Shown here one piece after another: positions 10,074 to 50,785 of a stretch of DNA of 60,610 nucleotides. The position numbers and the translations under genes were made by a program. Origin of the DNA: Escherichia phage Pondi. The notes below the pieces were generated by a model, which had not been told where the DNA came from, did not search any database, and saw nothing but the letters and a program-made list of their open reading frames with translations. Location: the sequence record OP136151.1; one strand, written 5' to 3'. Each line of letters starts with the position of its first letter. Within the stretch, counting starts at the first letter, position 1.

Positions 10074-11705
10074 TTAAGCGACATCCGGTTCATAGCTGTC
10101 GTTGTAGCCACCCTCGATAACCGGGAAGGCGAACGTAAGGGCCAGCGCGTCACCAATATCAGGCGAGCGACCGATACGCTTCTTGATTTCGTCCTTCTTC
10201 TCAAGGCGCAGGCGGTCACCATCAAAGCGGTAGGTAGGCGCACAGAGGTCACGGCCCCAGTCATGACCCTGCGGAAGTGAGGCAGCGTTACGCATCCAGT
10301 CACGAATGCGGACCCACATTTCAGCGCGCTTGTTGGCGTACTTGTGTTCCTCGGTAGCCTTCTCTGCAAAGTGTACCATCGTCACATTGTGAGCGGCACC
10401 ACGGGCAGACAGGAGATCATGAACGCCAGTACCGTAACCGCCAGTGCCATCAATGAACGTATGGTTGACGCCGTACAGTTCCCGCAGTACGTGGAGGCGG
10501 TTGGCAATCTCGCCATTGGTCGCCTTGCTCAACTTCTCACAATGCAGGACCACACGACCACGACGCACCACGAAGGCCGTCGAGTCATCGCCCATTGCAG
10601 CAACGTCTACGCCCATAACGGTGGCACCGACAGGATCGAGCTTACCAGATTTCGCCCAGTACAACGCAGAGGCCACCATGTCACCAGTAATAAGCAGGTT
10701 GTCGCCTGTAGCCTGGAAAGCTAGCTCAGCGGTAGCGGGGTAATCTCGGTCAAAGCGTCGGGAGTCGCCATCGAGCAACTTGATTTGCTTACGACGCCAG
10801 AACATCTGGTCACGGTCCAGTCCGTAGAGACGGGCGTACTTTGCTTCCTCGTCGCTGTACACGAAGGAATCAGGAGCCTCGCTGCGGTACTCGTCTTGCC
10901 AGAACCACGGCACGAAGACACGGATAAAGCCGGAGCCGTCCGCATCCGTCAGGCTGTCATTGACCGCAGGTGATGCAAGCATCCACTGGGTATAGAAATA
11001 TCCTGATGCACCGTTGGCGGTTGACTCTAAGTAAACCTCGGTGCCGTCAGCGTTAGGGATGGCCTGCATGATACCTGATGCAATCTCGGCACCGTCATCA
11101 AAGAATCCGACCTCTGACCCGTGGAAGAAGGAAGCAGTAAGGCCACGTCCGGCAGACGTAGAGCCAGCGGTTGCTACTGCGTACTTGCTATCTAACTCAG
11201 GAAAGCTGAGCATCATGCCGTTATCGTGGCCCTTAACAGGCTGCAAGTCTTCCGGGCAATGCTGATGGTAACGCTTGGTCATGTCGAACAGGGCGGAGGA
11301 TGATTTAGCCTGATGCGCCATAATTAGCGAGTGATAAGCCTCGGTGTGAATCGTCTTCCAGTATGCGCGAGCCTGGACCGTGGTACTCATCCCCTGCTGG
11401 CGACCTTTAACGACCACAATACGCACCTTACCCGTGTGGTGCATCTGCCATGCTGCGATTGCATTCATGTATTGCTGAGCTTTGTTAAGCCGGATGGGGG
11501 CGATCGTGTTGTCCTTGCCACGGATAACAAGGCATCGCTCAGCGAAGAATTGGAACTCGGTACGACACTTGAGGAAAAAGGCGTCCATCTCTGAGTCATC
11601 TTCAAAGGTAAAGTTAACGCTATTTGCCTTCTTCTCTAAGTAATCGACCAGCATCCAGACATCGTCATCGGTGTTGGTGAACTCCCATACGTCACGTTTA
11701 GACAT
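10074..11705 (-). CDS. Terminase large subunit, 543 aa
   Basis: Deviant Walker A-like KGRQQGMST near N-terminus, size and domain order typical of large terminases; TAATG overlap with upstream small-terminase candidate. Confidence 0.8.
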   Translation of the reverse strand: MSKRDVWEFTNTDDDVWMLVDYLEKKANSVNFTFEDDSEMDAFFLKCRTEFQFFAERCLVIRGKDNTIAPIRLNKAQQYMNAIAAWQMHHTGKVRIVVVKGRQQGMSTTVQARAYWKTIHTEAYHSLIMAHQAKSSSALFDMTKRYHQHCPEDLQPVKGHDNGMMLSFPELDSKYAVATAGSTSAGRGLTASFFHGSEVGFFDDGAEIASGIMQAIPNADGTEVYLESTANGASGYFYTQWMLASPAVNDSLTDADGSGFIRVFVPWFWQDEYRSEAPDSFVYSDEEAKYARLYGLDRDQMFWRRKQIKLLDGDSRRFDRDYPATAELAFQATGDNLLITGDMVASALYWAKSGKLDPVGATVMGVDVAAMGDDSTAFVVRRGRVVLHCEKLSKATNGEIANRLHVLRELYGVNHTFIDGTGGYGTGVHDLLSARGAAHNVTMVHFAEKATEEHKYANKRAEMWVRIRDWMRNAASLPQGHDWGRDLCAPTYRFDGDRLRLEKKDEIKKRIGRSPDIGDALALTFAFPVIEGGYNDSYEPDVA

Positions 11706-20722: not shown

Positions 20723-21370
20723 ATGAAACAATCAATTGTAGACGCTATCTTACGCAACGCTGAGCACAAATCCGGTATCGTCGAACGTGACAAGACCATT
20801 TGCGCCCGTCGATCTGCGGTGGCTGTGCGTATCCGTGATTACTTCCTGAAGCAATCCGGTCTGAGCATTGAGGAAATTTTAGCATTAAAGCGTGACGCCG
20901 ATCATATCAATGACAAGCTGAAAGCGTTCGGCTGTGTCAACGCTCAGGTAACAAGCGATTACTTTTATGTAAACGTATGCGGTCACAGCCATAACATTCG
21001 CATTGACGGCCTGCGCTACGGTGGCACGTATGATGATGCGCGTTCATTGTTTGCTGATAGCGGCGCTGACATCGAGCATTGCATCGTACCCGCCTGGCCT
21101 GTTGGTGAAGGTCTGGTGTACCCGTATGAATCCGCACGCGATGAGCTTATGGCGATTGATGCCGACGCTAAGGCGCTGCGCAAGGACTACGACAACCTTC
21201 ACGCCACGCTGAAAGCCCAGCTTAAGCCGTTCCGCACGGTTGCCGCACTGCTGAAAGCCTGGCCGGAAGCGGCTGAATTAATCCCGGCGACCGAGAAACC
21301 GCAGTCAACCGAGATTGCGCTTGATGTGTCCACGCTTAACGCGCTGTGTGGGGTACCATCTGGTAAATGA
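20723..21370 (+). CDS. Hypothetical protein, 215 aa
   Basis: AAGGA RBS; no recognisable motif. Confidence 0.5.
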   Translation: MKQSIVDAILRNAEHKSGIVERDKTICARRSAVAVRIRDYFLKQSGLSIEEILALKRDADHINDKLKAFGCVNAQVTSDYFYVNVCGHSHNIRIDGLRYGGTYDDARSLFADSGADIEHCIVPAWPVGEGLVYPYESARDELMAIDADAKALRKDYDNLHATLKAQLKPFRTVAALLKAWPEAAELIPATEKPQSTEIALDVSTLNALCGVPSGK

Positions 21371-23922: not shown

Positions 23923-23951
23923 TTGACAGTCAGGGACGACTATACTAAATT
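23923..23951 (+). promoter_or_regulatory. Sigma70-like promoter candidate (TTGACAGTCAG... -10 TAAATT)
   Basis: -35 TTGACA, 17-nt spacer; shares the extended TTGACAGTCAG with the candidate at 25852. Confidence 0.3.
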
Positions 23952-23986
23952 CATTATTCTACAAACGCGACAATAGGAAAATCAAA

Positions 23987-24169
23987 ATGAGCTTATTTGA
24001 CTTAGTATTCAATGCTTTCCAACCTGCGCCTGAAATCGGTAACACGTACCACGGTACCCGCACCGAGATCGTAACGTACACGAAGCGCTATACCCGTAAA
24101 GGTGTTCGCATCATTCCTTTAGAAGTCCGTGCGCTCCCTGGCAATAGCCGTGGTAAGGCGCGTCGCTAA
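23987..24169 (+). CDS. Hypothetical basic protein, 60 aa
   Basis: AGGAAAA RBS; TAATG coupling downstream. Confidence 0.4.
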   Translation: MSLFDLVFNAFQPAPEIGNTYHGTRTEIVTYTKRYTRKGVRIIPLEVRALPGNSRGKARR

Positions 24170-24660
24170 TGGCGATCACCTGTAACACACTGGACGAGGC
24201 CATCAAGCAGGCTGAACGCATGTCTGCGGTACTCGGTAAACCTTATTGCGTCGTGACGTATAAGGGGAAATACCGGGCAGTCCAGCGCGTTAACAAGCTG
24301 TACAGGCTGCGGGTAGTCTGGCAGAACTGGGAGCCTATCGAACGGTATCGCGTCCCAGTAGCCAACACGCCGATGAACAGAATGATTGTCGAGCGTAAAC
24401 CACGTGTTGAAGCTGCCGAATTACTGGGGATTCTCCCGCGACAGCTTGATACTGTGCGCAAGAAATACGGCTGGAAAAGTCCTGAGAAGGGCGTAAAGAT
24501 TGACCTTAATCATCTGCGTCACGCGATGCTAACCATGACCGCCAGCGATTACGCTGGTGAGATTGGGGTGTACCCTGAACGCATTTACAAGCTGTGCAAA
24601 CAGCATAACATCACGCGTCACGTCACGCGGCCACGGGGGAGTCGTAAAAATGGCAATTAA
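24169..24660 (+). CDS. Putative DNA-binding protein with two HTH-like segments, 163 aa
   Basis: AAELLGILPRQLDTVRKKYG and ASDYAGEIGVYPERIYKLCKQH resemble helix-turn-helix units. Confidence 0.4.
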   Translation: MAITCNTLDEAIKQAERMSAVLGKPYCVVTYKGKYRAVQRVNKLYRLRVVWQNWEPIERYRVPVANTPMNRMIVERKPRVEAAELLGILPRQLDTVRKKYGWKSPEKGVKIDLNHLRHAMLTMTASDYAGEIGVYPERIYKLCKQHNITRHVTRPRGSRKNGN

Positions 24661-24904
24661 TATTGAAGCTACAGCAACGAGTGTAGAGGTGGGTACGTCT
24701 ACCTACAACGAGATCAGCGTTAATATCGTACACTTGAACCTGGCCGAGTATGTGAGCGCTGAGGCAATTGTCGCTGAATACAGTGCATCTTCGCTACTAG
24801 ATGCGATCGGCGGCTTTGACGACTGGGTAGAAGAGGGGCGCGTCCGTGAATCAGACGTTGCTGAATGGCTGGCAGAACGTGGTTATAAAGTGGAGAAAGA
24901 ATAA
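24650..24904 (+). CDS. Small strongly acidic protein, 84 aa
   Basis: Internal ATG with GGGGGAG RBS; net charge about -12. Confidence 0.45.
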   Translation: MAINIEATATSVEVGTSTYNEISVNIVHLNLAEYVSAEAIVAEYSASSLLDAIGGFDDWVEEGRVRESDVAEWLAERGYKVEKE

Positions 24905-25104
24905 TGGGTAAGTTATCAGGTATCATTGCAATAGGTGCAATTTGGGGTGTTATTCTGGCTGGTATCACAGGCTGGTTCTTGAACCTGGCGCACTGCCTGT
25001 CGTATATTGGTGGAGGCCATCCAGATGATACCACCGCCGAAGTAGTGATGCGCATCGTAGGAATTTTCACCTTCTTACCTGGCGCGATTGCTGGCTGGCT
25101 GTAG
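24904..25104 (+). CDS. Small membrane protein, 66 aa, two predicted TM helices
   Basis: Two hydrophobic stretches; TAATG coupling. Confidence 0.45.
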   Translation: MGKLSGIIAIGAIWGVILAGITGWFLNLAHCLSYIGGGHPDDTTAEVVMRIVGIFTFLPGAIAGWL

Positions 25105-25150
25105 TAAATGATGGGCGCAATTCCGCGCCCCTCTCAAACGAGGTGCCTTT

Positions 25151-26878: not shown

Positions 26879-27091
26879 ATGGCGCAGCACAAGATTAACG
26901 TGTTCGGTCGTTACCTGCTATGCTGTATAGCATCGGCTGACGCACCTGTAACGTTCGATGAACTGGCCTCCTATACCGGCTACGACAAAGAGCATGTGCG
27001 CAAGGCGGTAAAGAAACTTGAAACGGCTGGAGTCGTTACTATTCACAAACCGCATCGTAAGGAGGCTCAAATTGTCGCAACATTTATTTGA
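26879..27091 (+). CDS. Small winged-helix-like DNA-binding protein, about 70 aa
   Basis: DELASYTGYDKEHVRKAVKKLETAGVV resembles a wHTH; start uncertain (weak RBS). Confidence 0.35.
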   Translation: MAQHKINVFGRYLLCCIASADAPVTFDELASYTGYDKEHVRKAVKKLETAGVVTIHKPHRKEAQIVATFI

Positions 27092-27560
27092 GCATCATTT
27101 CAGATACGACCCCGTTACCGGGAAACTGTTCTGGAAAAGGCCAACGGCGAATTGCATGAAGCCGGGTGATGAGGTAGGCGCTGTAAACTTTGACGGTTAT
27201 CGCCAGTGTTATTTCAAGTGTAAGCAGTATAAAGTTCATCGCATAATATGGGAGATGTGTCACGGTACGGCACCCGATGGATTCATCGACCATATCAACG
27301 GTATACGTGATGACAATCGTATTGAAAATTTAAGAATCGCAACATCCGCTGACAACGGGAGGAATAGAGAACGTTTATATCGAAACAAGCTGGGTGTTAA
27401 AGGGTTGTGTGTAGGTAACGGATCGTACTGCGCTTATGTGTGCGACAATCGAAAATACTTCCCTTTAACTGAAGAAGGTAAACGCCTCGCCGTGGAATGG
27501 TTACAGGCTCAACGACTGGCACATGGAGAATTTGCCAACCACGGAGAACACAAAGCATGA
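27072..27560 (+). CDS. HNH homing-type endonuclease, about 162 aa (TTG start)
   Basis: RYDPVTGKLFWKR and HRIIWEMCHG...IDHINGIRDDNRIENLR match the HNH motif; AGGAGG 6 nt upstream of TTG. Confidence 0.7.
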   Translation: MSQHLFEHHFRYDPVTGKLFWKRPTANCMKPGDEVGAVNFDGYRQCYFKCKQYKVHRIIWEMCHGTAPDGFIDHINGIRDDNRIENLRIATSADNGRNRERLYRNKLGVKGLCVGNGSYCAYVCDNRKYFPLTEEGKRLAVEWLQAQRLAHGEFANHGEHKA

Positions 27561-27868
27561 TTTTATTAATCGACGGGCCGCGAGTAGGTGATCGCGTTAC
27601 CAATTTACCTAAAGGATACAGGTGTTGCTTTCATCTTGATAACCACCCGGACATCGCCAGCTTTAACCGGGAGTATGACCGCCACAAATTCATCGTCGAC
27701 CTGATTGACGGCGTGGAAGTGATGACGGATGAGAACACCGCGATTAACGTGGTGAACCAGGCGCGACACGGTAATCTGACCGTACTCGCAAAGCATGTGG
27801 TGGATCTCATTGTCGCCACAAATGAAGCAATCATTGACGCACAGGAGGCCAGCCGCCATGTCAAATGA
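27557..27868 (+). CDS. Hypothetical protein, 103 aa
   Basis: ATGA-coupled to HNH gene. Confidence 0.45.
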   Translation: MILLIDGPRVGDRVTNLPKGYRCCFHLDNHPDIASFNREYDRHKFIVDLIDGVEVMTDENTAINVVNQARHGNLTVLAKHVVDLIVATNEAIIDAQEASRHVK

Positions 27869-28109
27869 ACCTAAACATATTGATCTTTGCGTTAACCCAA
27901 ACGGGCTGGGAGACGTGCTGAGCGACATGCTCAGTATCGTAAACAGTGACCGCAGTCAGGGAGTCTTTGCTGTACTGGGTGTGGTTGACGGTGTGCAACT
28001 GGTGCTGGCGGCGAGTGATGTCGATGAGTATCAGGTACATGATGAAGAACTGGAGATTCAGCTTGATGATCCGGTAATCTTTGAGCAACTCAAACTAACG
28101 TTTCACTAA
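27858..28109 (+). CDS. Small strongly acidic protein, 83 aa
   Basis: AGGAGG RBS; about 17 Asp/Glu versus 3 Lys/Arg. Confidence 0.5.
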   Translation: MSNEPKHIDLCVNPNGLGDVLSDMLSIVNSDRSQGVFAVLGVVDGVQLVLAASDVDEYQVHDEELEIQLDDPVIFEQLKLTFH

Positions 28110-28542: not shown

Positions 28543-29037
28543 CTACTTGGTTCCTTTGAAAGTGCCAATTCTTTTTTCGCCCAGCTTACCCGGTTCAAAC
28601 ACAAACAGCACTTGTCCCAGGTTGTTTCCGGCTACACGCTTTCCGGTAACGGGGTGAATGAAGGCCACACGCCCGATACTAAACCTGGCCTCTGAGCAAG
28701 CCTCCAGCGCCTTGTGAAACCAGCGAGCACCAGTCTGTGCGTTGACGATTGACACCACGCCACGGTCCGATTCGCTGCACTGTATCCACTGATCCACCCA
28801 CGGGTCCACGAAGGAGAACGGCGGGTTGTTCCATACCCATTTACCTTCCGGGCAGAAGTCCGCCCAGTTAAAACCTAACCCCTGCTTAAAATACAGGGGG
28901 AACTTTCTGTTGTGCTCATCTGCCGCCGCGTCGATTGCGAAATCGAACTCCAGCGACAGGCGATCAATCAACCACTGGGGCGTACCCCAGCAATCGCGTA
29001 ACTCCTTTGGTGTCTTGCTTGCGTAGAAAGGTTTCAT
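28543..29037 (-). CDS. DNA N6-adenine methyltransferase, phage Dam family (T1-type), 164 aa
   Basis: CWGTPQWL...FDFAIDAAA...WVWNNPPFS matches the compact phage Dam-family signature with NPPF catalytic motif; ATGA-coupled to primase-helicase. Confidence 0.7.
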   Translation of the reverse strand: MKPFYASKTPKELRDCWGTPQWLIDRLSLEFDFAIDAAADEHNRKFPLYFKQGLGFNWADFCPEGKWVWNNPPFSFVDPWVDQWIQCSESDRGVVSIVNAQTGARWFHKALEACSEARFSIGRVAFIHPVTGKRVAGNNLGQVLFVFEPGKLGEKRIGTFKGTK

Positions 29038-44165: not shown

Positions 44166-47100
44166 TTAAAACAACATCCAATATTTGTCACTCAATTCTT
44201 TCGCCAGTTCGTTCTTCTTGACCTGCAAGGCATCCAGTTCTGCACGCTTCGCTTCAGGTGACATACCGTCGTTCGCGTAAATCTCTTTCGTCTGGCGGTT
44301 GTACTTCTGCATCCGGGCAACGCCTTTCTCAATTGACTTACGGGCAGACAACACGCTGGCCTTCTCGGTCTTAAACTCCCGATACGCCTGCATGTTCTTC
44401 TGGTCTTTGTACGCCTTCAGGGTACCGTACGTTTGACCAGCCTTCTCGCTCATCTGGTACAGACGGTCGGTGTATTTGTCGCCGGACACACCGCCACGTA
44501 CGAAAGTTTTTACCACCGGGTAATCAAAATCCTTTTTAGCCGGGGCAACTTTTTCGGTACCCGTTCCTTTGCGATAGGCCACGTCCGTTACACCGACGAT
44601 GTACTGACCGACTGTCCCGGTGTAACCCTCAATCATATGCTGGAGACGCAGCGGACTACGCATCCATTCCGGGGCAGCTTCAGGTAACGCCTTGCTCATA
44701 TCCTTAATCCACTCAGGCGTCGTGGTGCTGTGCTGCTGGTTAGCTTCCAGACGTTGCAGTGACTGCGGTACGATTGGACGCTGAGTAAAGCTATTCATGT
44801 TGGTCTGGTCTTCGTAGATCGGCTTGAAGAACTGAGGCCAGTCTGCCGCAAACGTGTTAGACAACATGAAGCCCAGGCGTGCACCAAACATACGGTCGTC
44901 ACGGTACAGCGCTTCGAATGCACGCTCAGGAATAGTGCCGAACAGTGCGCCCAGTTCGAACGGTTTCGGGATACGGTAGCGAGTGTCGCCAGCGAAGATG
45001 ATCCAGAAGGAATCACGCTCATGTTCTGGCAGCGCCCAGTAACGTTCGTCGTCCGCGTTCATTGCCATAAGGGCCATCGTTGCACCAACAAGTAGAGCAC
45101 CTTTCAGCATGAACGCTTTCGGGTTCTCTTTACCACCACGTACCATACGGTCCAGACCCTGCACACGGGCATTCAGGAACGGTATCATCGCCATCGCTGC
45201 TTTGGTTACACGGCTGCTACCACGGCGGCTGAAGTTCAGCACATCGTTAGACTGGTATGCAGCTTCCACCGGATCGCCAGTGTGCTTCAGGACGTCTTCG
45301 TACACACCCATGCGAGTGGCCTGTTCGGATGCCGTCAGCAACTTACTGTACATTTCCCACAGCTTCTTAGGTGAGTTAACGATGGTGCCGCCTTTCTCCA
45401 GCTTGCGCAGGTTTTTGGCAACCGACTCAGGACGGGAGTTATCGTAACCGCCCATCATGCCGCCAGCGACGTGGTAGTCGACAGCCATCGAGTCGTTGCG
45501 GATGGAACGCATCGCACCCTGGAACGCTTTGAAGAACGGGCGGAACGTCAGGACGTCTTTAGTGATAGCAGACATTCCGTTGCGGCCAGCGGCTTTAGTC
45601 ATCTGCACATAGTTACCCATTACGTCACGCACGAAGTTGGTCATAACGAAGTTAGGCGTTGACGTCACGGCTGCTGTGAATACACGTTTAGGCCAGCCGA
45701 GAATGTTGATGAGGGTATCGACGGCTTCCGGGCCAACACCTGCGATTGCTTCCAGCAACTGCGGGTCGGTCACTTCGTAATACTTCGCCTTGCCACCTTC
45801 ACGCACGGAGATAATGTTAGCGCCCTGCGGTGCTACTGCGGTGAACAGGTTGGAGTATTGCGCCATCTGCTCAGCGGTCATACCTTCAACCTTCAGGCCC
45901 AGGTTGGTCAGCGCACGTTTCATCTGCTCGTTGCTGATACCGACAGGCTTGAAGTTGTGCGGCACTTCTTCCAGCGCTGCGTTGATGGTAATGTCGCGCA
46001 CCTTCTGCATGGCCGCGTTCTTGTAGCCGGACGAGATCATGTGGTTAACGTTACGCGCCATGTTCTCCAGGATGTCCATTTTACCAGCGCCACCCTTCAG
46101 ACGGCGGATGCCGGAAGACTGATCAGCGAGGCCACGTTTTCCAGACGGTGCTGTTACACGGTCCACTTCCTCATCCACACGGTAGAACGGAACGTAGTCG
46201 TCGGATTCGAACAGTTTACGCTGCTCAGGATCTACGATGCCAGTTTGCTCACCGAAGTCGAGGATGGCTTTGTTAAACTCACGCCAGTCTTTGTGCGCCT
46301 GGTTGAATACCTTACGCATTTCCGGGCGACGGTTAACATAGTCGATGATGTCTTTAATCTGCTTCTCGGTGTACAGGTTTTCGCGGCCTTCTTCCATCAA
46401 GCGTTTGGCACGCACAGCACCCGCCCAGTATTCCCACACTGGCAGCATATTACCTTTCATCTCCAGCACTGGATTGAAGATTTCAGTGAAGCCTTTGGTG
46501 TTCTTGTTCAGGCTGATGCCACCGTCTTTGTATACCGGAGCGCCGTGGTTCATTGCGACGGCCACGGTGCTGTTCACGTTCTTCGCCAGCATTGCCATCT
46601 TGTACGCCGACTCTTTACCCTGACGCAGTTCACCGTTGTTACCAGCCTTCTCATATTTGGCGATGGTGTACAGGTCATCCACGCCTTTCTGATACAAGCC
46701 TTCCATCGTCAGACCGTTGTCTTTCATGATGTCTTTGATGCGCTGGAACAGAGAGCGGTCATCGCGGTACATGGTGTCACGCATACCCTGCTTGATGTCT
46801 TCGTCCACTTCCGCAGACTCGATGTCGTTTTTCTTTTTCAGGCTGGCGGCAAAGTTACGCGGCGCGCTGTACTGCATCGGCGGCAGAGATTTACGCACGT
46901 CGTCACGGTTGACAGTGTTGTCACGCAGGTACTGAGCATTGGCCTGAATAAGCTGGCGTACAGACTCCATGCTGGCGCGACCGTCAATCAGCTTGGCTTT
47001 AATCATCAACTGACGCAGAGCTTCCAGCACGCGGGTAATGACGTTGGACTTCTCCAGGATAGCTGGGTTTTCCGCAGCCAGCGCTAGGACTTCTTCAGCC

Positions 47101-50100
47101 ATCATACGCTGCGCGTCAGGTGACGACATGTCGTACAGTTCGCTGTAGCTCTCGCGCACTTCTTTGAAATACTTCGCCAGCGCCGGGGACTTATCGGCGG
47201 CCAGGATTTTATCCATCTCAGCGTCGTATTCCGGTTTAGACAGGCGAGCACGCAGACCGTAGTGTACGACAATCTCATGACGCAACAGAGCTTCCACTTC
47301 TTCCTTGCTGGTCAGGTTTTCGGAGATCAGTTTAGCGCTCACGTTGCCAGCGTCATAGAAGCCGAGCAGGACGCTACCTTCCGGCAGGTCGATACCCATA
47401 TCTTCCTGACGCTGCATGACGGTCATGTCTACAGCCTGCGCGCCTTTGAACTTCTTCAGGAAGTCGGCGGCAACCACAGCCACATCTTCCGGTGACATAC
47501 CTTGCTTATCAGACGCAGGTTTAACGCTGGCAGCACCGGACTGTTTGTCAATCTTACGCTTAGCGTAGTCCTTACCGAAAATCTCACGACGACCTTTTGA
47601 GTCTTCAGTAGCCAGGTACGTGTCGTGGATAGACTTAACGGTGAACGTCTCGCCGTCTTCCTCGAAAGTCTTACCTACCAGCGTGTGATAGTCGACATTA
47701 GGGGTAACGTCCGGCTTGTCAGTCTTCTTCGGTACGCGAGCTTCTTTGTAGGCCACGTAATGTTTGGCTGGCGCTGACATGTCACGGGAGTCAACCTTAT
47801 CACCACGGGCATACGCGCGGTCGATGGTTTCCTTCAGTGTGATACCGTCAGGTTGCATCTTCTCCAGGGCGCGGACGTAGTTGCGACGTACCAGTGGCTT
47901 CATACCACGTGTGAAATCTTCCAGTGACTTCTCGAAAGATTCAGTGCGCGCGGCAGACTTCTCACGCAGACGGTCAGCCGTCGCCTGACTTTCTTTACTC
48001 AGACCTTTCGGTGACGGTTCAGCGATACTGGACATGCGTTCTTCCAGTTCCTTACGCATGGTCGCGCGAGTCTTACCTTTCAGTGGCGCGTACAGATGAC
48101 GGTCGGATTCCGGTACCTGCGTTTCCATAGCGGCCAGGGTCTCACGCACTTTGTTCAGCGGACGCTTGGTATCGTTGACTTCATGCAGCACACCTTGCAG
48201 CGTATTAGCGTTGACACGGCTTTCCGAAGACATCCCTAAACGATCACCTTTGCCCGGCGCGTCCATCACGTTGCTGTCACCACCGCGACGAATCATGACA
48301 TCGCCGTTGTCCAGCACGAAGCGACGACCTTGCACACCAGTGATCTTGCGGACTTCACCGTGGGAGTCTTTCGCATACTTCCCGTCCAGGTCGGTACCTT
48401 CCACTGGCCCAAAACCAACACGACCTTCAACGTCGGTAACGCGAGTAGACTCACCTTCGATTGCGGCGTTATCCTTTTCCTTCTCTGCGATCATCTCACC
48501 CAGGTCACGCTGGACTTCGGCAGACTGCGCCAGTACATCGTCGGTCGCCTGCTGTGCATCGGTAACCATCTCACCCAGGTTGCGCTCGTCTTCGAACTCT
48601 ACAGGGGCTAGGTCATAACGCTCACGGGCATCTTTGGTTTCCTGAGACACACGCTTCATACCTTCCGGTACCACAGACGGCACGTTGATTTCACGGGCGT
48701 CGACAATGTGACCGTTGCCGTTCTCATCAACCAGACGTACAGCGCGGCCCTGGAATTTATCGACGGAATACTCCTTGCCGTTCCAGTTCACTTTGTTGCC
48801 GACGTCAACGCCACGCTCGTTGGCTTCCTTCAGGATCTTGTTGGTAACCTGAATAGCTGGCTGCTTCTTGCCAGGTAACGCCGGACGCACAGATTCACGC
48901 TCGATGTATTTCGCTACAGCCTCGTCACCTTTCGCCTTTAGTTCTGCCTGACGTGCTTCTTCGGCGGCCAGCGCTTCTGTATCGACTTCTGGCGCGGCTT
49001 TCTTTTTGGTACGGGCAAACAGTGCTGACTTCGGTTTAACCTCGGCAGCGGCTGGCTCAGCGGCGGGAACGGTCGGTTCCAGTGCAGCGGCTACGTCAAT
49101 CTGCGGCAGCGGCGGTGGAGTCACTTTATCTTTCGGCGGCAGTGCTGGCGGTACCACAGCTTCGGTAACCTGCGGTAATGCTGGCGCTTCCAGTTTCTGC
49201 TGTACTGCTGCCAGTACCGGAGACTCTTCAGCGACACCGCGTGGATTGTAACCAGTGGCCTCTTTAACCTGCGCAACTGGACCGGGCATAGCGATGGTGG
49301 AAGTTTGCCCCGGAGACGGCAGACCTTTAGTTTCACCCGGCAGCGGACCGACGTCACCCTGCGCTACCTGCTGCTGTACCATCTGAGCTACAGACTGCGG
49401 TGCGTTAGTGGCGCTCGCCTTGTTCGCATAGTAGATAGAGTCCGGGGAGTCGAATAGTTCGCTGACCATCTGATCCATAGCGTCGACTTCACCGACATCA
49501 CGGGATGCGGCCATCGCTTCAGCCGGAGACATACCCTGAGCGCGCGCTTCCATGTAGGCAGACTTGCGAGCTTCAGTGATTGCAGGAGACGCCTGTTCAA
49601 CCATCTGGTCCAGCACGTCACCGCCGCCCATCTCAGCACGCACAGCGTCGTATTCGTTCGGGTCCACACCTTCAACAGCCTGACCGGACTCAGCCGCAGC
49701 GTCACCGATAGCGTTGTTAACAGAGCGGTTATCCTTCCAGTCTTTGACCATGCCGGGAGCTTGCACCGCGCCATGCAGAGTAGCACCTACGCCAGCACCA
49801 GTTACACCGGAGAACGCCACGTCATTCAGGAACTGGCCTACCGTCATGTCTTCGTCGAGCACGCCGATGTCGTAACCATTCTGGATAGCCTGGGTAGCGG
49901 ATTCCTGAATACCTTCAGCTATTGCAGATTTGCCGAGATCAGTAAGGCTGTGGGCACCTTTCTTCATGATGAGGCCCAGCGGTACCGCTTCAGTAATCGG
50001 TTCCAGTGCGGCGAACATGGTTGCGCGGTTGTCGGCTTCTGCCGGAGACAGACCTTTGTCGATTGAGTCCTGATAGTAGGAACCGTACGCCTGACCAGTC

Positions 50101-50744
50101 ATCTCAGCGAGGCCAGCGACCGGGCGCTTCAACAGGATGGACGTCAGGATTGCCGGAGACATGTCCTGCGCGCCCGTGAGGATTGTGGATACCAGGTTTT
50201 TAGCTGACCACTCGTCGCCAGTCTTCGGTGCAGTTTTGGCAATTTCGTTTGACAGGCGAAGACCTTCGTCACGCGCGGCAACAAAGTCGGCATCCTTATT
50301 CAGTTCTGCGGCCTTCGCTTTATCAATAGCGGCGTAGAGAGCTTTATTCTTTTGCAGTTTGGTCGCATACGTGTCGCCTTCGGCAGCGGTAAAGGTAGCT
50401 GGGTCAATCCCCAGTTCGGCAGCATATGACGGATCGTTACGCAGGCGTTCAGCCAGCACCCCGTCAGTCAGGTCTTGACCTTTGACGGCCACGCCTTGTT
50501 TGATACCCTGCCATGAACGTTGCATACGCTCAGGCATCGCGGCGAGAGATTTGTAAATTACGTCGCCCCAACTATCTTCTTTTGCTGGTTCTGTGACGGC
50601 TGTCTCACTTCCGATACCGGAAAAGTCTACGTCACCCAGGTCGAAGTTAACTGTCGACAGGTCGATGTCAGATTTAGGTTTTGATGCAGGTTGTTGATTT
50701 GGCTGGGATAAGTCCAGTCCAGAAAGGTCGATGTTGCTTGCCAT
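44166..50744 (-). CDS. Giant virion-associated protein, about 2192 aa (putative internal/ejection protein; function unknown)
   Basis: Start at ATG 50744 preceded by AGGGGGAG (track ORF extends 13 codons further); last gene of the late operon; no Walker A, RNA polymerase or peptidase motif recognised by eye. Confidence 0.6.
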   Translation of the reverse strand: MASNIDLSGLDLSQPNQQPASKPKSDIDLSTVNFDLGDVDFSGIGSETAVTEPAKEDSWGDVIYKSLAAMPERMQRSWQGIKQGVAVKGQDLTDGVLAERLRNDPSYAAELGIDPATFTAAEGDTYATKLQKNKALYAAIDKAKAAELNKDADFVAARDEGLRLSNEIAKTAPKTGDEWSAKNLVSTILTGAQDMSPAILTSILLKRPVAGLAEMTGQAYGSYYQDSIDKGLSPAEADNRATMFAALEPITEAVPLGLIMKKGAHSLTDLGKSAIAEGIQESATQAIQNGYDIGVLDEDMTVGQFLNDVAFSGVTGAGVGATLHGAVQAPGMVKDWKDNRSVNNAIGDAAAESGQAVEGVDPNEYDAVRAEMGGGDVLDQMVEQASPAITEARKSAYMEARAQGMSPAEAMAASRDVGEVDAMDQMVSELFDSPDSIYYANKASATNAPQSVAQMVQQQVAQGDVGPLPGETKGLPSPGQTSTIAMPGPVAQVKEATGYNPRGVAEESPVLAAVQQKLEAPALPQVTEAVVPPALPPKDKVTPPPLPQIDVAAALEPTVPAAEPAAAEVKPKSALFARTKKKAAPEVDTEALAAEEARQAELKAKGDEAVAKYIERESVRPALPGKKQPAIQVTNKILKEANERGVDVGNKVNWNGKEYSVDKFQGRAVRLVDENGNGHIVDAREINVPSVVPEGMKRVSQETKDARERYDLAPVEFEDERNLGEMVTDAQQATDDVLAQSAEVQRDLGEMIAEKEKDNAAIEGESTRVTDVEGRVGFGPVEGTDLDGKYAKDSHGEVRKITGVQGRRFVLDNGDVMIRRGGDSNVMDAPGKGDRLGMSSESRVNANTLQGVLHEVNDTKRPLNKVRETLAAMETQVPESDRHLYAPLKGKTRATMRKELEERMSSIAEPSPKGLSKESQATADRLREKSAARTESFEKSLEDFTRGMKPLVRRNYVRALEKMQPDGITLKETIDRAYARGDKVDSRDMSAPAKHYVAYKEARVPKKTDKPDVTPNVDYHTLVGKTFEEDGETFTVKSIHDTYLATEDSKGRREIFGKDYAKRKIDKQSGAASVKPASDKQGMSPEDVAVVAADFLKKFKGAQAVDMTVMQRQEDMGIDLPEGSVLLGFYDAGNVSAKLISENLTSKEEVEALLRHEIVVHYGLRARLSKPEYDAEMDKILAADKSPALAKYFKEVRESYSELYDMSSPDAQRMMAEEVLALAAENPAILEKSNVITRVLEALRQLMIKAKLIDGRASMESVRQLIQANAQYLRDNTVNRDDVRKSLPPMQYSAPRNFAASLKKKNDIESAEVDEDIKQGMRDTMYRDDRSLFQRIKDIMKDNGLTMEGLYQKGVDDLYTIAKYEKAGNNGELRQGKESAYKMAMLAKNVNSTVAVAMNHGAPVYKDGGISLNKNTKGFTEIFNPVLEMKGNMLPVWEYWAGAVRAKRLMEEGRENLYTEKQIKDIIDYVNRRPEMRKVFNQAHKDWREFNKAILDFGEQTGIVDPEQRKLFESDDYVPFYRVDEEVDRVTAPSGKRGLADQSSGIRRLKGGAGKMDILENMARNVNHMISSGYKNAAMQKVRDITINAALEEVPHNFKPVGISNEQMKRALTNLGLKVEGMTAEQMAQYSNLFTAVAPQGANIISVREGGKAKYYEVTDPQLLEAIAGVGPEAVDTLINILGWPKRVFTAAVTSTPNFVMTNFVRDVMGNYVQMTKAAGRNGMSAITKDVLTFRPFFKAFQGAMRSIRNDSMAVDYHVAGGMMGGYDNSRPESVAKNLRKLEKGGTIVNSPKKLWEMYSKLLTASEQATRMGVYEDVLKHTGDPVEAAYQSNDVLNFSRRGSSRVTKAAMAMIPFLNARVQGLDRMVRGGKENPKAFMLKGALLVGATMALMAMNADDERYWALPEHERDSFWIIFAGDTRYRIPKPFELGALFGTIPERAFEALYRDDRMFGARLGFMLSNTFAADWPQFFKPIYEDQTNMNSFTQRPIVPQSLQRLEANQQHSTTTPEWIKDMSKALPEAAPEWMRSPLRLQHMIEGYTGTVGQYIVGVTDVAYRKGTGTEKVAPAKKDFDYPVVKTFVRGGVSGDKYTDRLYQMSEKAGQTYGTLKAYKDQKNMQAYREFKTEKASVLSARKSIEKGVARMQKYNRQTKEIYANDGMSPEAKRAELDALQVKKNELAKELSDKYWMLF

Positions 50745-50785
50745 TAGAAATGCTCCCCCTTGTTGATAGGGGAAGCATAGCATAT

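What the first reader, a model, noticed from the sequence alone, without database searches (positions are those of the whole stretch)
24650..24904. Strongly acidic 84-aa early protein: possible DNA mimic / anti-restriction candidate
About 17 acidic versus 5 basic residues (net charge near -12) in a small early protein with a strong RBS. Ocr-like and ArdA-like DNA mimics and several anti-CRISPR proteins share this composition.
Basis: inference. Interest (0 to 1): 0.5.

Follow-up and report, generated by a model that had tools for sequence, protein, structure and literature searches.

The report
Small acidic early phage accessory protein
The 84-residue acidic protein is a real, early-expressed, dispensable phage gene from an uncharacterised family that sits where phages usually keep host-interference genes, but published data on a related phage argue against the proposed anti-restriction role, and its target is unknown.

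Summary
Window 24650-24904 (+) encodes an 84-aa protein with 17 D/E and 5 K/R (pI 4.2), behind a GGGGGAG ribosome-binding site. It is under purifying selection.

The window is a Xuquatrovirus-like E. coli podophage. Its close relative PTXU04 lacks exactly this gene. In other relatives this gene and the next one are a hypervariable patch inside otherwise 100%-identical DNA.

The protein belongs to a family of about 70 stand-alone proteins (PHROG 14049/7311, function unknown). All members are acidic, net -9 to -16. The family occurs:
- in podo-, sipho- and T4-like lytic phages;
- in Vibrio phages;
- in lambdoid and Rac-like prophages, in the early-left operon between N and the recombination genes.

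It is absent from plasmids. No sequence or fold match was found to Ocr, ArdA, Gam, gp5.9 or any solved anti-CRISPR. The AlphaFold models are too weak (pLDDT up to 64) to test for a DNA-like surface.

Phage Bas95 carries a 44%-identical orthologue and is strongly restricted by type I, II and III R-M systems. An Ocr/ArdA-like role is therefore unlikely.

Best reading (about 0.35): an early stoichiometric inhibitor of a host defence or repair protein other than classical R-M. Interest is modest.

The parts
24650..24904 (+). acid84: gene for the 84-aa acidic protein (net -12, pI 4.2). Predicted N-terminal beta-hairpin (about residues 7-31) followed by four short helices. Conserved motifs are EIVxEY, LLDAIG and VxxWLxxxGYxV.
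   Evidence: dN/dS 0.11.
24635..24641 (+). Shine-Dalgarno-like GGGGGAG, 8 nt upstream of the ATG. In PTXU04 the same site serves the membrane-protein gene directly.
24650..24903 (+). 254-bp segment present here but absent from PTXU04, bounded by the 4-bp direct repeat ATGG (24650-24653 and 24904-24907). It is a precise one-gene indel.
   Evidence: The gene is present in Bas95, L004, L005 and the more distant L022.
24650..24830 (+). Hypervariable N-terminal part of the gene. DNA identity to L004 is 44-82% here, while the 450 bp upstream are 100% identical. dS 0.86 and dN 0.57 in codons 1-48; dS 0 in codons 49-84, which places a recombination breakpoint inside the gene.
24904..25104 (+). mem66: downstream 66-aa two-TM protein (PHROG 6006, function unknown). 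It is translationally coupled (TAATG) and hypervariable together with acid84. It is retained in PTXU04, so it is not an obligate partner.
24169..24660 (+). orf163: upstream 163-aa protein with only sub-threshold HTH hits. It is conserved (88-100% aa identity in relatives) and overlaps the acid84 start by 11 nt.
23923..23951 (+). Sigma70-like promoter (TTGACA-17-TAAATT, 10/12) in the gap before orf60. Probable start of the operon orf60-orf163-acid84-mem66.
   Evidence: consensus scan only.
25113..25130 (+). GC-rich stem-loop GGGCGC-AATTCC-GCGCCC after mem66, conserved in PTXU04. Possible operon end or RNA-stability element; there is no T-run.
   Evidence: not called a terminator.

Best explanation
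acid84 is a cytoplasmic, early-expressed, non-essential accessory protein. It belongs to an uncharacterised, phage-restricted family of compact acidic proteins.

Most likely it acts alone and stoichiometrically. It would bind a positively charged, probably nucleic-acid-binding, surface of a host protein and block it. That host protein would be a defence or DNA-repair/nuclease complex other than classical type I-III restriction enzymes. A RecBCD-like nuclease-helicase, or a defence system that senses phage replication or recombination, is the leading candidate class.

The conserved C-terminal helical core (EIVxEY / LLDAIG / VxxWLxxxGY) would form the fold and possibly a dimer interface. The variable, amphipathic, acidic N-terminal beta-hairpin would carry target specificity or let the protein escape host sensors.

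What is shown:
- the gene is real;
- acidity is conserved across the family;
- the gene is dispensable and hypervariable;
- the family has early-operon locations and no conserved partner.

What is inferred:
- inhibition by binding;
- the nature of the target;
- the roles of the two halves.
For: - Acidity is conserved: net -9 to -16 in all 56 aligned members at 30-96% identity. Near-invariant acidic columns are E33, E38, E43, D51 and D69, and the second beta-strand has an acidic face.
- The protein always stands alone. It is 47-139 aa, never fused, and has no conserved neighbour.
- The gene is dispensable. It is precisely absent from PTXU04 but kept in a deep relative at 35% identity.
- It forms a hypervariable cassette. 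Against L004, orf163 is 100% and PhoH 99% identical, while acid84 is 61% and mem66 62%. dN/dS is elevated (0.66) in the N-terminal half.
- The context recurs in unrelated backbones:
  - lambdoid prophages of Yersinia, Enterobacter and Pectobacterium, between N and cIII/Gam/RecT/Erf/Rad52;
  - Rac-like Serratia prophages, directly upstream of RecE/RecT;
  - Guernseyvirinae-like phages, as the first gene after the divergent repressor promoter, and ST20;
  - Krischvirus, right after rIIB in the non-essential region;
  - Vibrio phages, next to SSB or nuclease genes.
- A 2026 preprint describes recombination loci of lambdoid phages as a hotspot of anti-defence genes and small RecBCD-manipulating proteins (10.64898/2026.07.10.737580).
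- The family is phage-only and absent from plasmids. This fits a target met during phage infection rather than during generic DNA entry.
Against: - There is no direct functional evidence for any family member.
- The structure models are poor (pLDDT 51 and 64, pTM 0.3). Neither a binding surface nor oligomerisation can be assessed.
- Small acidic proteins are common in phages, and about one per genome is expected by chance.
- One prophage carries both this family and a Gam-like gene, which weakens a simple RecBCD-inhibitor reading.
- PTXU04 grows without the gene.
- Hypervariability here is largely recombinational mosaicism, not demonstrated positive selection.
Confidence: 0.35

Rival explanations
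1. acid84 is an Ocr/ArdA-like DNA mimic that blocks type I (or other) restriction-modification enzymes, or BREX, early in infection.
For: - Acidic composition, early position and strong RBS.
- It is the first gene of an early operon in Guernseyvirinae-like contigs, as ocr is in T7.
- In lambdoid prophages it occupies the N-proximal slot where lambda has ral and where HK446 has an 82-aa acidic protein annotated 'anti-restriction protein'.
Against: - Bas95 carries an intact 44%-identical orthologue. Its EOP is 0.0008-0.004 on EcoKI and 0.0004-0.001 on EcoCFT_I, with only 4 and 7 sites. It is also restricted by EcoRI and EcoRV, and falls below detection on EcoCFT_II and EcoP1 (PMC11990801 supplement). 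The authors conclude that it lacks potent genome protection.
- No Pfam Ocr or ArdA hit, no PDB-sequence hit and no fold hit.
- The predicted beta-hairpin-plus-helices topology differs from the all-helical Ocr (low confidence).
- Absent from plasmids, where ArdA-type genes are typical.
- BREX was not tested anywhere.
Confidence: 0.07
2. acid84 is a host-takeover factor aimed at a conserved housekeeping protein, such as H-NS/StpA, RNA polymerase, a protease, topoisomerase or the division machinery, rather than at a defence system.
For: - The family spans Enterobacterales and Vibrio phages of four morphotypes and lifestyles. This fits a broadly conserved target.
- The Krischvirus copy lies in the rIIB-to-gene 52 region. 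From general knowledge of T4, that region holds ndd, denB, ac and stp.
- Lambdoid copies share the operon with kil and cIII-type host modulators.
- The C-terminal core is conserved.
Against: - The gene is dispensable, and it is hypervariable among near-identical phages. That pattern is more typical of arms-race genes than of factors aimed at invariant housekeeping targets.
- There is no homology to any known takeover protein.
Confidence: 0.2
3. acid84 is a phage-internal accessory factor. It would be a small chaperone or regulator of the phage's own replication, recombination or nucleotide-metabolism proteins, or of the neighbouring orf163 or mem66.
For: - It is translationally coupled within a four-gene operon.
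- It is frequently near recombination or replication genes.
- It co-varies with mem66 in Xuquatrovirus-like phages.
Against: - No phage gene is a conserved neighbour across backbones. orf163 and mem66 have no homologues next to family members elsewhere.
- mem66 and orf163 persist in PTXU04 without acid84.
- The recombination systems next to it are of unrelated types: RecET, Erf, Rad52 and RecT/YqaJ.
Confidence: 0.13
4. acid84 is an anti-CRISPR of the DNA-mimic type, against type I-E or I-F systems of Enterobacterales and Vibrio.
For: - Size and charge resemble AcrIF2 and AcrIIA4 (general knowledge).
- From general knowledge, the host genera of the family commonly carry I-E or I-F systems.
Against: - No profile match to any solved Acr.
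- No consistent downstream aca-type HTH gene.
- Absent from plasmids and other non-phage elements.
Confidence: 0.06
5. acid84 and the downstream membrane protein form a superinfection-exclusion or inter-phage competition module.
For: - acid84 and the two-TM mem66 are adjacent, coupled and jointly hypervariable.
- Small early membrane proteins often mediate exclusion (general knowledge).
Against: - Outside Xuquatrovirus-like phages, family members have no membrane-protein neighbour.
- PTXU04 keeps mem66 alone.
- In prophages the gene lies in the repressed early-left operon, not in a lysogen-expressed moron position.
Confidence: 0.06

Closest known systems
PHROG 14049 / PHROG 7311 (phage protein families of unknown function; for example JSE EpJSE_00275 and ST20 ASH99361)
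   Same: acid84 matches both profiles (E 4.9e-6 and 6.7e-5). 19 of 20 family representatives hit PHROG 14049. They share the EIVxEY / LLDAIG / WLxxxGY motifs and the strong acidity.
   Different: The Xuquatrovirus and Kagunavirus 'long form' carries a 13-residue insert (GFDDWVEEGRVRE) that is absent from the 70-79-aa prophage and Vibrio-phage forms. The Krischvirus form has a duplicated helix unit. None of these has a known function.
T7 Ocr (gp0.3) and ArdA: DNA-mimic inhibitors of type I R-M
   Same: Small, very acidic and early. In some phages the family gene is the first gene of an early operon.
   Different: - No sequence, profile or fold similarity.
- Lower charge density (-0.14 per residue).
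- A beta-hairpin is predicted.
- Phage Bas95, which carries an orthologue, is fully restricted by two type I systems.
- The family is not on plasmids.
RecBCD inhibitors and manipulators in phage recombination loci: lambda Gam, P22/HK Abc2, T7 gp5.9, HK75 gp33
   Same: Small proteins, several of them acidic, encoded next to the recombination genes in the early-left operon. The family sits upstream of RecET, Gam/RecT, Erf and Rad52 modules. This is the hotspot described.
   Different: There is no homology: HK446 ORFs give no hit with the family HMM, and the PDB profile search gives none. The family co-occurs with a Gam-like gene in one prophage. In the window phage there is no adjacent recombination module.
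Positional analogues: lambda Ral slot / HK446 gp36 ('anti-restriction protein', 82 aa, net -11) and Rac RacC
   Same: They occupy the same slots (N-proximal, or directly upstream of recE) and have similar size. gp36 is similarly acidic.
   Different: They are not homologous. RacC against the family by hhalign gives probability 0.4%, and there is no HMM hit in HK446 or Rac.

Membership tests
Ocr (T7 gp0.3) family | Sequence or profile similarity to Ocr (Pfam Ocr; PDB 1S7Z). | tested here: not met
   No Pfam hit at E <= 1 for acid84 or for 56 homologues. A profile search of all PDB chains gave a best E of 0.65, to unrelated proteins.
Ocr (T7 gp0.3) family | All-helical elongated dimer whose surface carboxylates copy bent B-DNA. 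| tested here: inconclusive
Ocr (T7 gp0.3) family | Protects the phage from type I R-M. | tested here: not met
   The evidence is indirect, from the literature. Bas95 carries a 44% orthologue. Its EOP is about 1e-3 on EcoKI and EcoCFT_I (PMC11990801). The window protein itself was not assayed.
ArdA family | Profile similarity to ArdA (Pfam ArdA; PDB 2W82). | tested here: not met
   no hit.
ArdA family | Carried in leading regions of conjugative plasmids or ICEs. | tested here: not met
   tblastn of acid84 and of a prophage member against 72,556 plasmids found no match.
DNA-mimic anti-CRISPRs (AcrIF2, AcrIIA2/4 and others) | Homology to a characterised Acr, or linkage to an aca HTH gene. | tested here: not met
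   No PDB-sequence or fold hit. No consistent HTH gene downstream in nine contexts.
DNA-mimic anti-CRISPRs (AcrIF2, AcrIIA2/4 and others) | Inhibits CRISPR-Cas interference. | not testable with these tools
   This needs plaque or transformation assays in type I-E or I-F strains.
Phage RecBCD inhibitors (Gam, Abc2, gp5.9) | Homology to Gam, Abc2 or gp5.9. | tested here: not met
Phage RecBCD inhibitors (Gam, Abc2, gp5.9) | Encoded within or next to the phage recombination module of the early-left operon. | tested here: met
   Met for the prophage members: upstream of RecE/RecT, of GamL/RecT/YqaJ, of Erf/SSB and Rad52, and of RecT/YqaJ. It does not apply in the window phage itself.
Phage RecBCD inhibitors (Gam, Abc2, gp5.9) | Inhibits RecBCD in vivo or in vitro. 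| not testable with these tools
   This needs, for example, plating of T4 gene 2 amber, or nuclease assays.
PHROG 14049 / 7311 (function unknown) | Significant profile match over most of the length. | tested here: met
   acid84 scores E 4.9e-6 (residues 15-82) and 6.7e-5 (residues 1-83). 19 of 20 and 12 of 20 representatives match. BFVD Foldseek recovers only family members.

The most novel reading that the evidence does not exclude
acid84 is the founding, experimentally tractable member of a new counter-defence family. The family has its own fold and a hypervariable acidic beta-hairpin. It has spread by horizontal exchange among podo-, sipho- and myoviruses and temperate lambdoid phages of Enterobacterales and Vibrio. 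It would neutralise a defence or repair system that is not yet matched with any phage inhibitor. Alternatively, it could be a trigger that such systems sense.
Probability: 0.3. Interest if true: 0.55.

Novelty: new member of a known kind. Interest (0 to 1): 0.3.

Why it matters
If the family is a counter-defence factor, it offers a compact (70-90 aa), widely distributed inhibitor whose target is still unassigned. It also comes with a ready natural experiment. PTXU04 lacks the gene. The window phage, Bas95 and metagenomic relatives carry divergent alleles in otherwise near-identical backgrounds. Comparing their host ranges could therefore link allele to host defence.

As it stands, this is one more uncharacterised small acidic early phage protein. 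The specific hypothesis that made it attractive, Ocr-like anti-restriction, is contradicted by published phenotypes of a phage that carries an orthologue.

Tried and rejected
- **Pfam, NCBIfam and PADLOC** scans of acid84 and of 20-56 homologues gave only noise.
- **PDB sequence profile search.** The best hits were the poliovirus 3A soluble domain (E 0.65) and an archaeal 8-oxoG glycosylase (E about 1). Both share the short pattern LLxAIxxxxVxxWLExxGY. I rejected them as insignificant.
- **A 915-aa repeat protein (P0012)** was hit in the exhaustive search (E 1e-7 over 7 stretches). I rejected it as summed weak matches to the GDW-containing insert of the long form only.
- **RacC**, which occupies the same slot upstream of recE, is not homologous.
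- **HK446 Oad2 (gp27), gp33 and gp36** gave no HMM hit.
- **Conserved partner genes.** orf163, mem66 and orf60 have no homologues beside family members in other backbones.
- **Plasmids:** no match.
- **Domain fusions and named homologues.** Three homology searches plus the exhaustive representative search found only stand-alone 'hypothetical' proteins.
- **The antisense 116-aa ORF** (24720-25070, - strand) and the 115-aa GTG-extended form (24557) have no support. The conservation pattern and the invariant MAI start favour 24650.
- **Rfam and tRNA scans** of the window found nothing.

Full report
**1. What is in the sequence**

Window 24650-24904 (+) is an ATG-to-TAA ORF of 84 codons:

MAINIEATATSVEVGTSTYNEISVNIVHLNLAEYVSAEAIVAEYSASSLLDAIGGFDDWVEEGRVRESDVAEWLAERGYKVEKE

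It has 17 D/E, 5 K/R and 1 H. The pI is 4.17 and the charge at pH 7 is -12.4. GGGGGAG lies at 24635-24641, 8 nt before the ATG.

The start overlaps the end of the upstream 163-aa ORF by 11 nt. The stop overlaps the start of a 66-aa two-TM protein (TAATG). The gene is therefore embedded in a translationally coupled string: orf60, orf163, acid84, mem66. This string lies behind a sigma70-like promoter at 23923-23951 and ahead of a conserved GC stem-loop at 25113-25130.

It is the most acidic of the 96 ATG-ORFs of at least 60 aa on the + strand. Under the genome's own amino-acid usage, a net charge of -12 or lower in 84 residues has P of about 0.011. That is about one such gene per genome by chance. 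The composition of this one protein is real but not in itself remarkable.

**2. It is a real, selected gene**

Against a 93%-identical allele (L005), dN/dS is 0.11. The N-terminus M-A-I is invariant among the close homologues. The antisense ORF and the longer GTG-initiated ORF have no support.

**3. Genome context**

The window is an almost complete genome of a Xuquatrovirus-like E. coli podophage. It is about 87% identical over the matched parts to PTXU04 and related to BASEL phage Bas95 'HelliStehle'.

The neighbours are typical early or middle functions:
- an Nmad5 protein;
- a HAD/PNKP phosphatase;
- an Rv2179c-like exonuclease;
- PhoH;
- an HNH endonuclease;
- Dam.

PTXU04 lacks exactly this gene. 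The same RBS (GGGGGAGTCGTAAAAATG) runs straight into the membrane-protein gene. The difference is a 254-bp indel bounded by a 4-bp ATGG repeat.

Bas95, two metagenomic relatives (L004, L005) and a much more distant relative (L022, protein 35% identical) all keep the gene in the same slot. The gene is therefore old in this lineage and was lost in PTXU04, so it is dispensable.

**4. Hypervariable cassette**

Against L004, protein identities are as follows:

| Protein | Identity to L004 |
|---|---|
| orf163 | 100% |
| acid84 | 61% |
| mem66 | 62% |
| PhoH | 99% |

DNA identity is 1.00 from 24180 to 24630. It drops to 0.44-0.82 across the N-terminal two-thirds of acid84, returns to 0.96 at its 3' end, drops again across mem66, and is 1.00 from about 25130.

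In codons 1-48, dS is 0.86 and dN is 0.57. In codons 49-84, dS is 0. The pattern is therefore allele replacement by recombination, with a breakpoint inside the gene. The N-terminal half is the variable part. Bas95's orthologue is only 44% identical, while its orf163 is 94% identical.

**5. The family**

One direct search, two iterative searches and one exhaustive HMMER search over 1.8 billion representatives found about 70 proteins. All are stand-alone, 47-139 aa, never fused and never named.

They correspond to PHROG 14049 and PHROG 7311, both of unknown function.

Conserved features:
- an N-terminal pair of beta-strands, the second amphipathic with an acidic face;
- the motifs EIVxEY, LLDAIG and (D/E)xDVxxWLxxxGYxV.

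Every one of the 56 aligned members is acidic, with net charge -9 to -16 and median -12, at identities down to about 30%. The near-invariant acidic positions are E33, E38, E43, D51 and D69. Acidity is thus a selected property of the family.

There are three forms:
- The window protein is a 'long form' with a 13-residue insert (GFDDWVEEGRVRE). By eye, the insert looks like a partial duplication of the following DVAEWLAERGY segment (inference).
- The prophage forms lack the insert.
- The Krischvirus form has a clear duplication of the helix unit.

**6. Where the family lives**

- Xuquatrovirus-like podophages, always in the same slot.
- Kagunavirus ST20 and Guernseyvirinae-like contigs. In the contigs it is the first gene of the rightward early operon, next to the divergent Cro/DicA-like repressor.
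- Krischvirus (RB49/JSE-like T4 relatives), directly after rIIB.
- Vibrio phages of 47 kb and 129 kb, among early nuclease and SSB genes.
- Lambdoid prophages of Yersinia, Enterobacter and Pectobacterium, in the early-left operon. There it lies between the N antiterminator and cIII, Gam, RecT/YqaJ, Erf/SSB or Rad52.
- Rac-like Serratia prophages, immediately upstream of RecE/RecT.

No neighbour is conserved across these backbones. The family is absent from 72,556 plasmids.

These locations are the classical homes of host-interference genes such as ral, kil, cIII, gam, abc2, ndd and stp (general knowledge). A 2026 preprint explicitly describes lambdoid recombination loci as an anti-defence hotspot populated by small RecBCD-manipulating proteins.

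**7.

*Sequence.* There is no Pfam, NCBIfam or PADLOC hit. A family profile against all PDB chains finds nothing below E 0.65. There is therefore no detectable homology to Ocr, ArdA, Arn, Gam, gp5.9 or any solved anti-CRISPR.

*Phenotype, from the literature.* Bas95 carries an intact orthologue. The BASEL completion study scored its efficiency of plating as follows (PMC11990801 supplementary data):

| System | Sites in Bas95 | EOP |
|---|---|---|
| EcoKI | 4 | 0.0008-0.004 |
| EcoCFT_I | 7 | 0.0004-0.001 |
| EcoRI | not given | 8e-6 to 0.04 |
| EcoRV | not given | 1e-6 to 1e-3 |
| EcoCFT_II and EcoP1 | not given | below detection |

[quoted passage not shown] A general B-DNA mimic of the Ocr type would be expected to relieve type I restriction. 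This is therefore substantial, though indirect, evidence against the anti-restriction reading. The caveat is that the orthologue is only 44% identical. BREX and CRISPR were not tested in that study.

**8. Best explanation and rivals**

I consider it most likely (about 0.35) that acid84 is a stand-alone early inhibitor. It would bind a basic surface of a host defence or repair protein other than classical R-M. A RecBCD-type nuclease-helicase, or a system that monitors phage replication or recombination, is the leading candidate. The conserved helical core would form the scaffold and the variable acidic hairpin the specificity or escape element.

Rivals, with estimated probabilities:
- a takeover factor against a housekeeping protein (0.2);
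- a phage-internal accessory factor (0.13);
- an Ocr/ArdA-like anti-restriction protein (0.07);
- an anti-CRISPR (0.06);
- an exclusion module together with mem66 (0.06).

None of these is demonstrated. All functional statements are inference from composition, distribution and context.

**9. Comparison with known families, and novelty**

The only membership that passes a test is PHROG 14049/7311, which has no known function. In what it may work like, the closest are small acidic inhibitors such as gp5.9, Gam, Ocr and DNA-mimic Acrs. It is not a member of any of those families.

I file it as a new member of a known kind: small acidic early accessory proteins. Interest is modest (0.3). The gene is real and the family is widespread and unstudied. 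No surprising property was found, and the most specific hypothesis attached to it is contradicted.

If the family proves to be a new counter-defence factor (about 0.3), it would merit about 0.55. PTXU04 (gene absent) against the window phage, Bas95 and L004 (divergent alleles) would then be a convenient experimental system.

Noticed in passing
window 44166-50783 (-): A 2204-aa ORF with a C-terminal LPD38 'large polyvalent protein' domain. Its PTXU04 counterpart, gp25 (2,198 aa), was a validated essential ('Fit') gene in a CRISPRi-ART screen and is proposed to subvert host defence (PMC11879866).
   Followed up: partly
window 24904-25104 (+): A 66-aa two-TM protein (PHROG 6006, function unknown; weak DUF1418 hit). 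It is only 62-70% identical among relatives whose flanking genes are 88-100% identical, so it is hypervariable together with acid84. It is retained in PTXU04.
   Followed up: partly
window 27018-27560 (+): An HNH_3 endonuclease ORF (E 7e-18). It is present here and in Bas95 but absent from PTXU04, L004 and L005 at the same position. It looks like a mobile homing-endonuclease insertion.
   Followed up: no
window 23980-24080 (+), inside orf60 (23987-24169): A second short variable patch, 60-70% DNA identity to L002, L004 and L005, between flanks that are 86-100% identical. orf60 is 68-70% identical at the protein level in all relatives.
   Followed up: no
window 20723-21370 (+) and 28543-29037 (-): An Nmad5 (nucleotide-modification-associated) protein and a Dam-type N6-adenine methyltransferase. 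Despite such genes, the relative Bas95 is reported to be highly R-M sensitive.
   Followed up: no
window 27858-28109 (+): Another small acidic ORF: 83 aa from the internal ATG, and the second most acidic on the + strand in its 104-aa form. It has no Pfam hit and is conserved in PTXU04 and Bas95 as an 83-aa hypothetical protein.
   Followed up: no
L020 (HK446) 10412-10660 (-): HK446 gp36 is 82 aa with net charge -11 and is annotated 'anti-restriction protein'. It occupies the N-to-cIII slot that family members occupy in Yersinia and Pectobacterium prophages, but it is unrelated in sequence. Unrelated small acidic proteins recur in this slot.
   Followed up: partly
L011 (phage JSE) 1213-1539: The Krischvirus family member (108 aa, just downstream of rIIB) contains a tandem duplication of the (I/V)xEYxxxxLLDxI...V(I)xxxL helix unit.
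   Followed up: partly
whole window: No tRNA genes and no Rfam family at gathering threshold. The window may be phage Pondi (OP136151) or a close relative. Pondi is reported as 83.8% identical to PTXU04 and is not in the searched phage collection. This was not verified.
   Followed up: no
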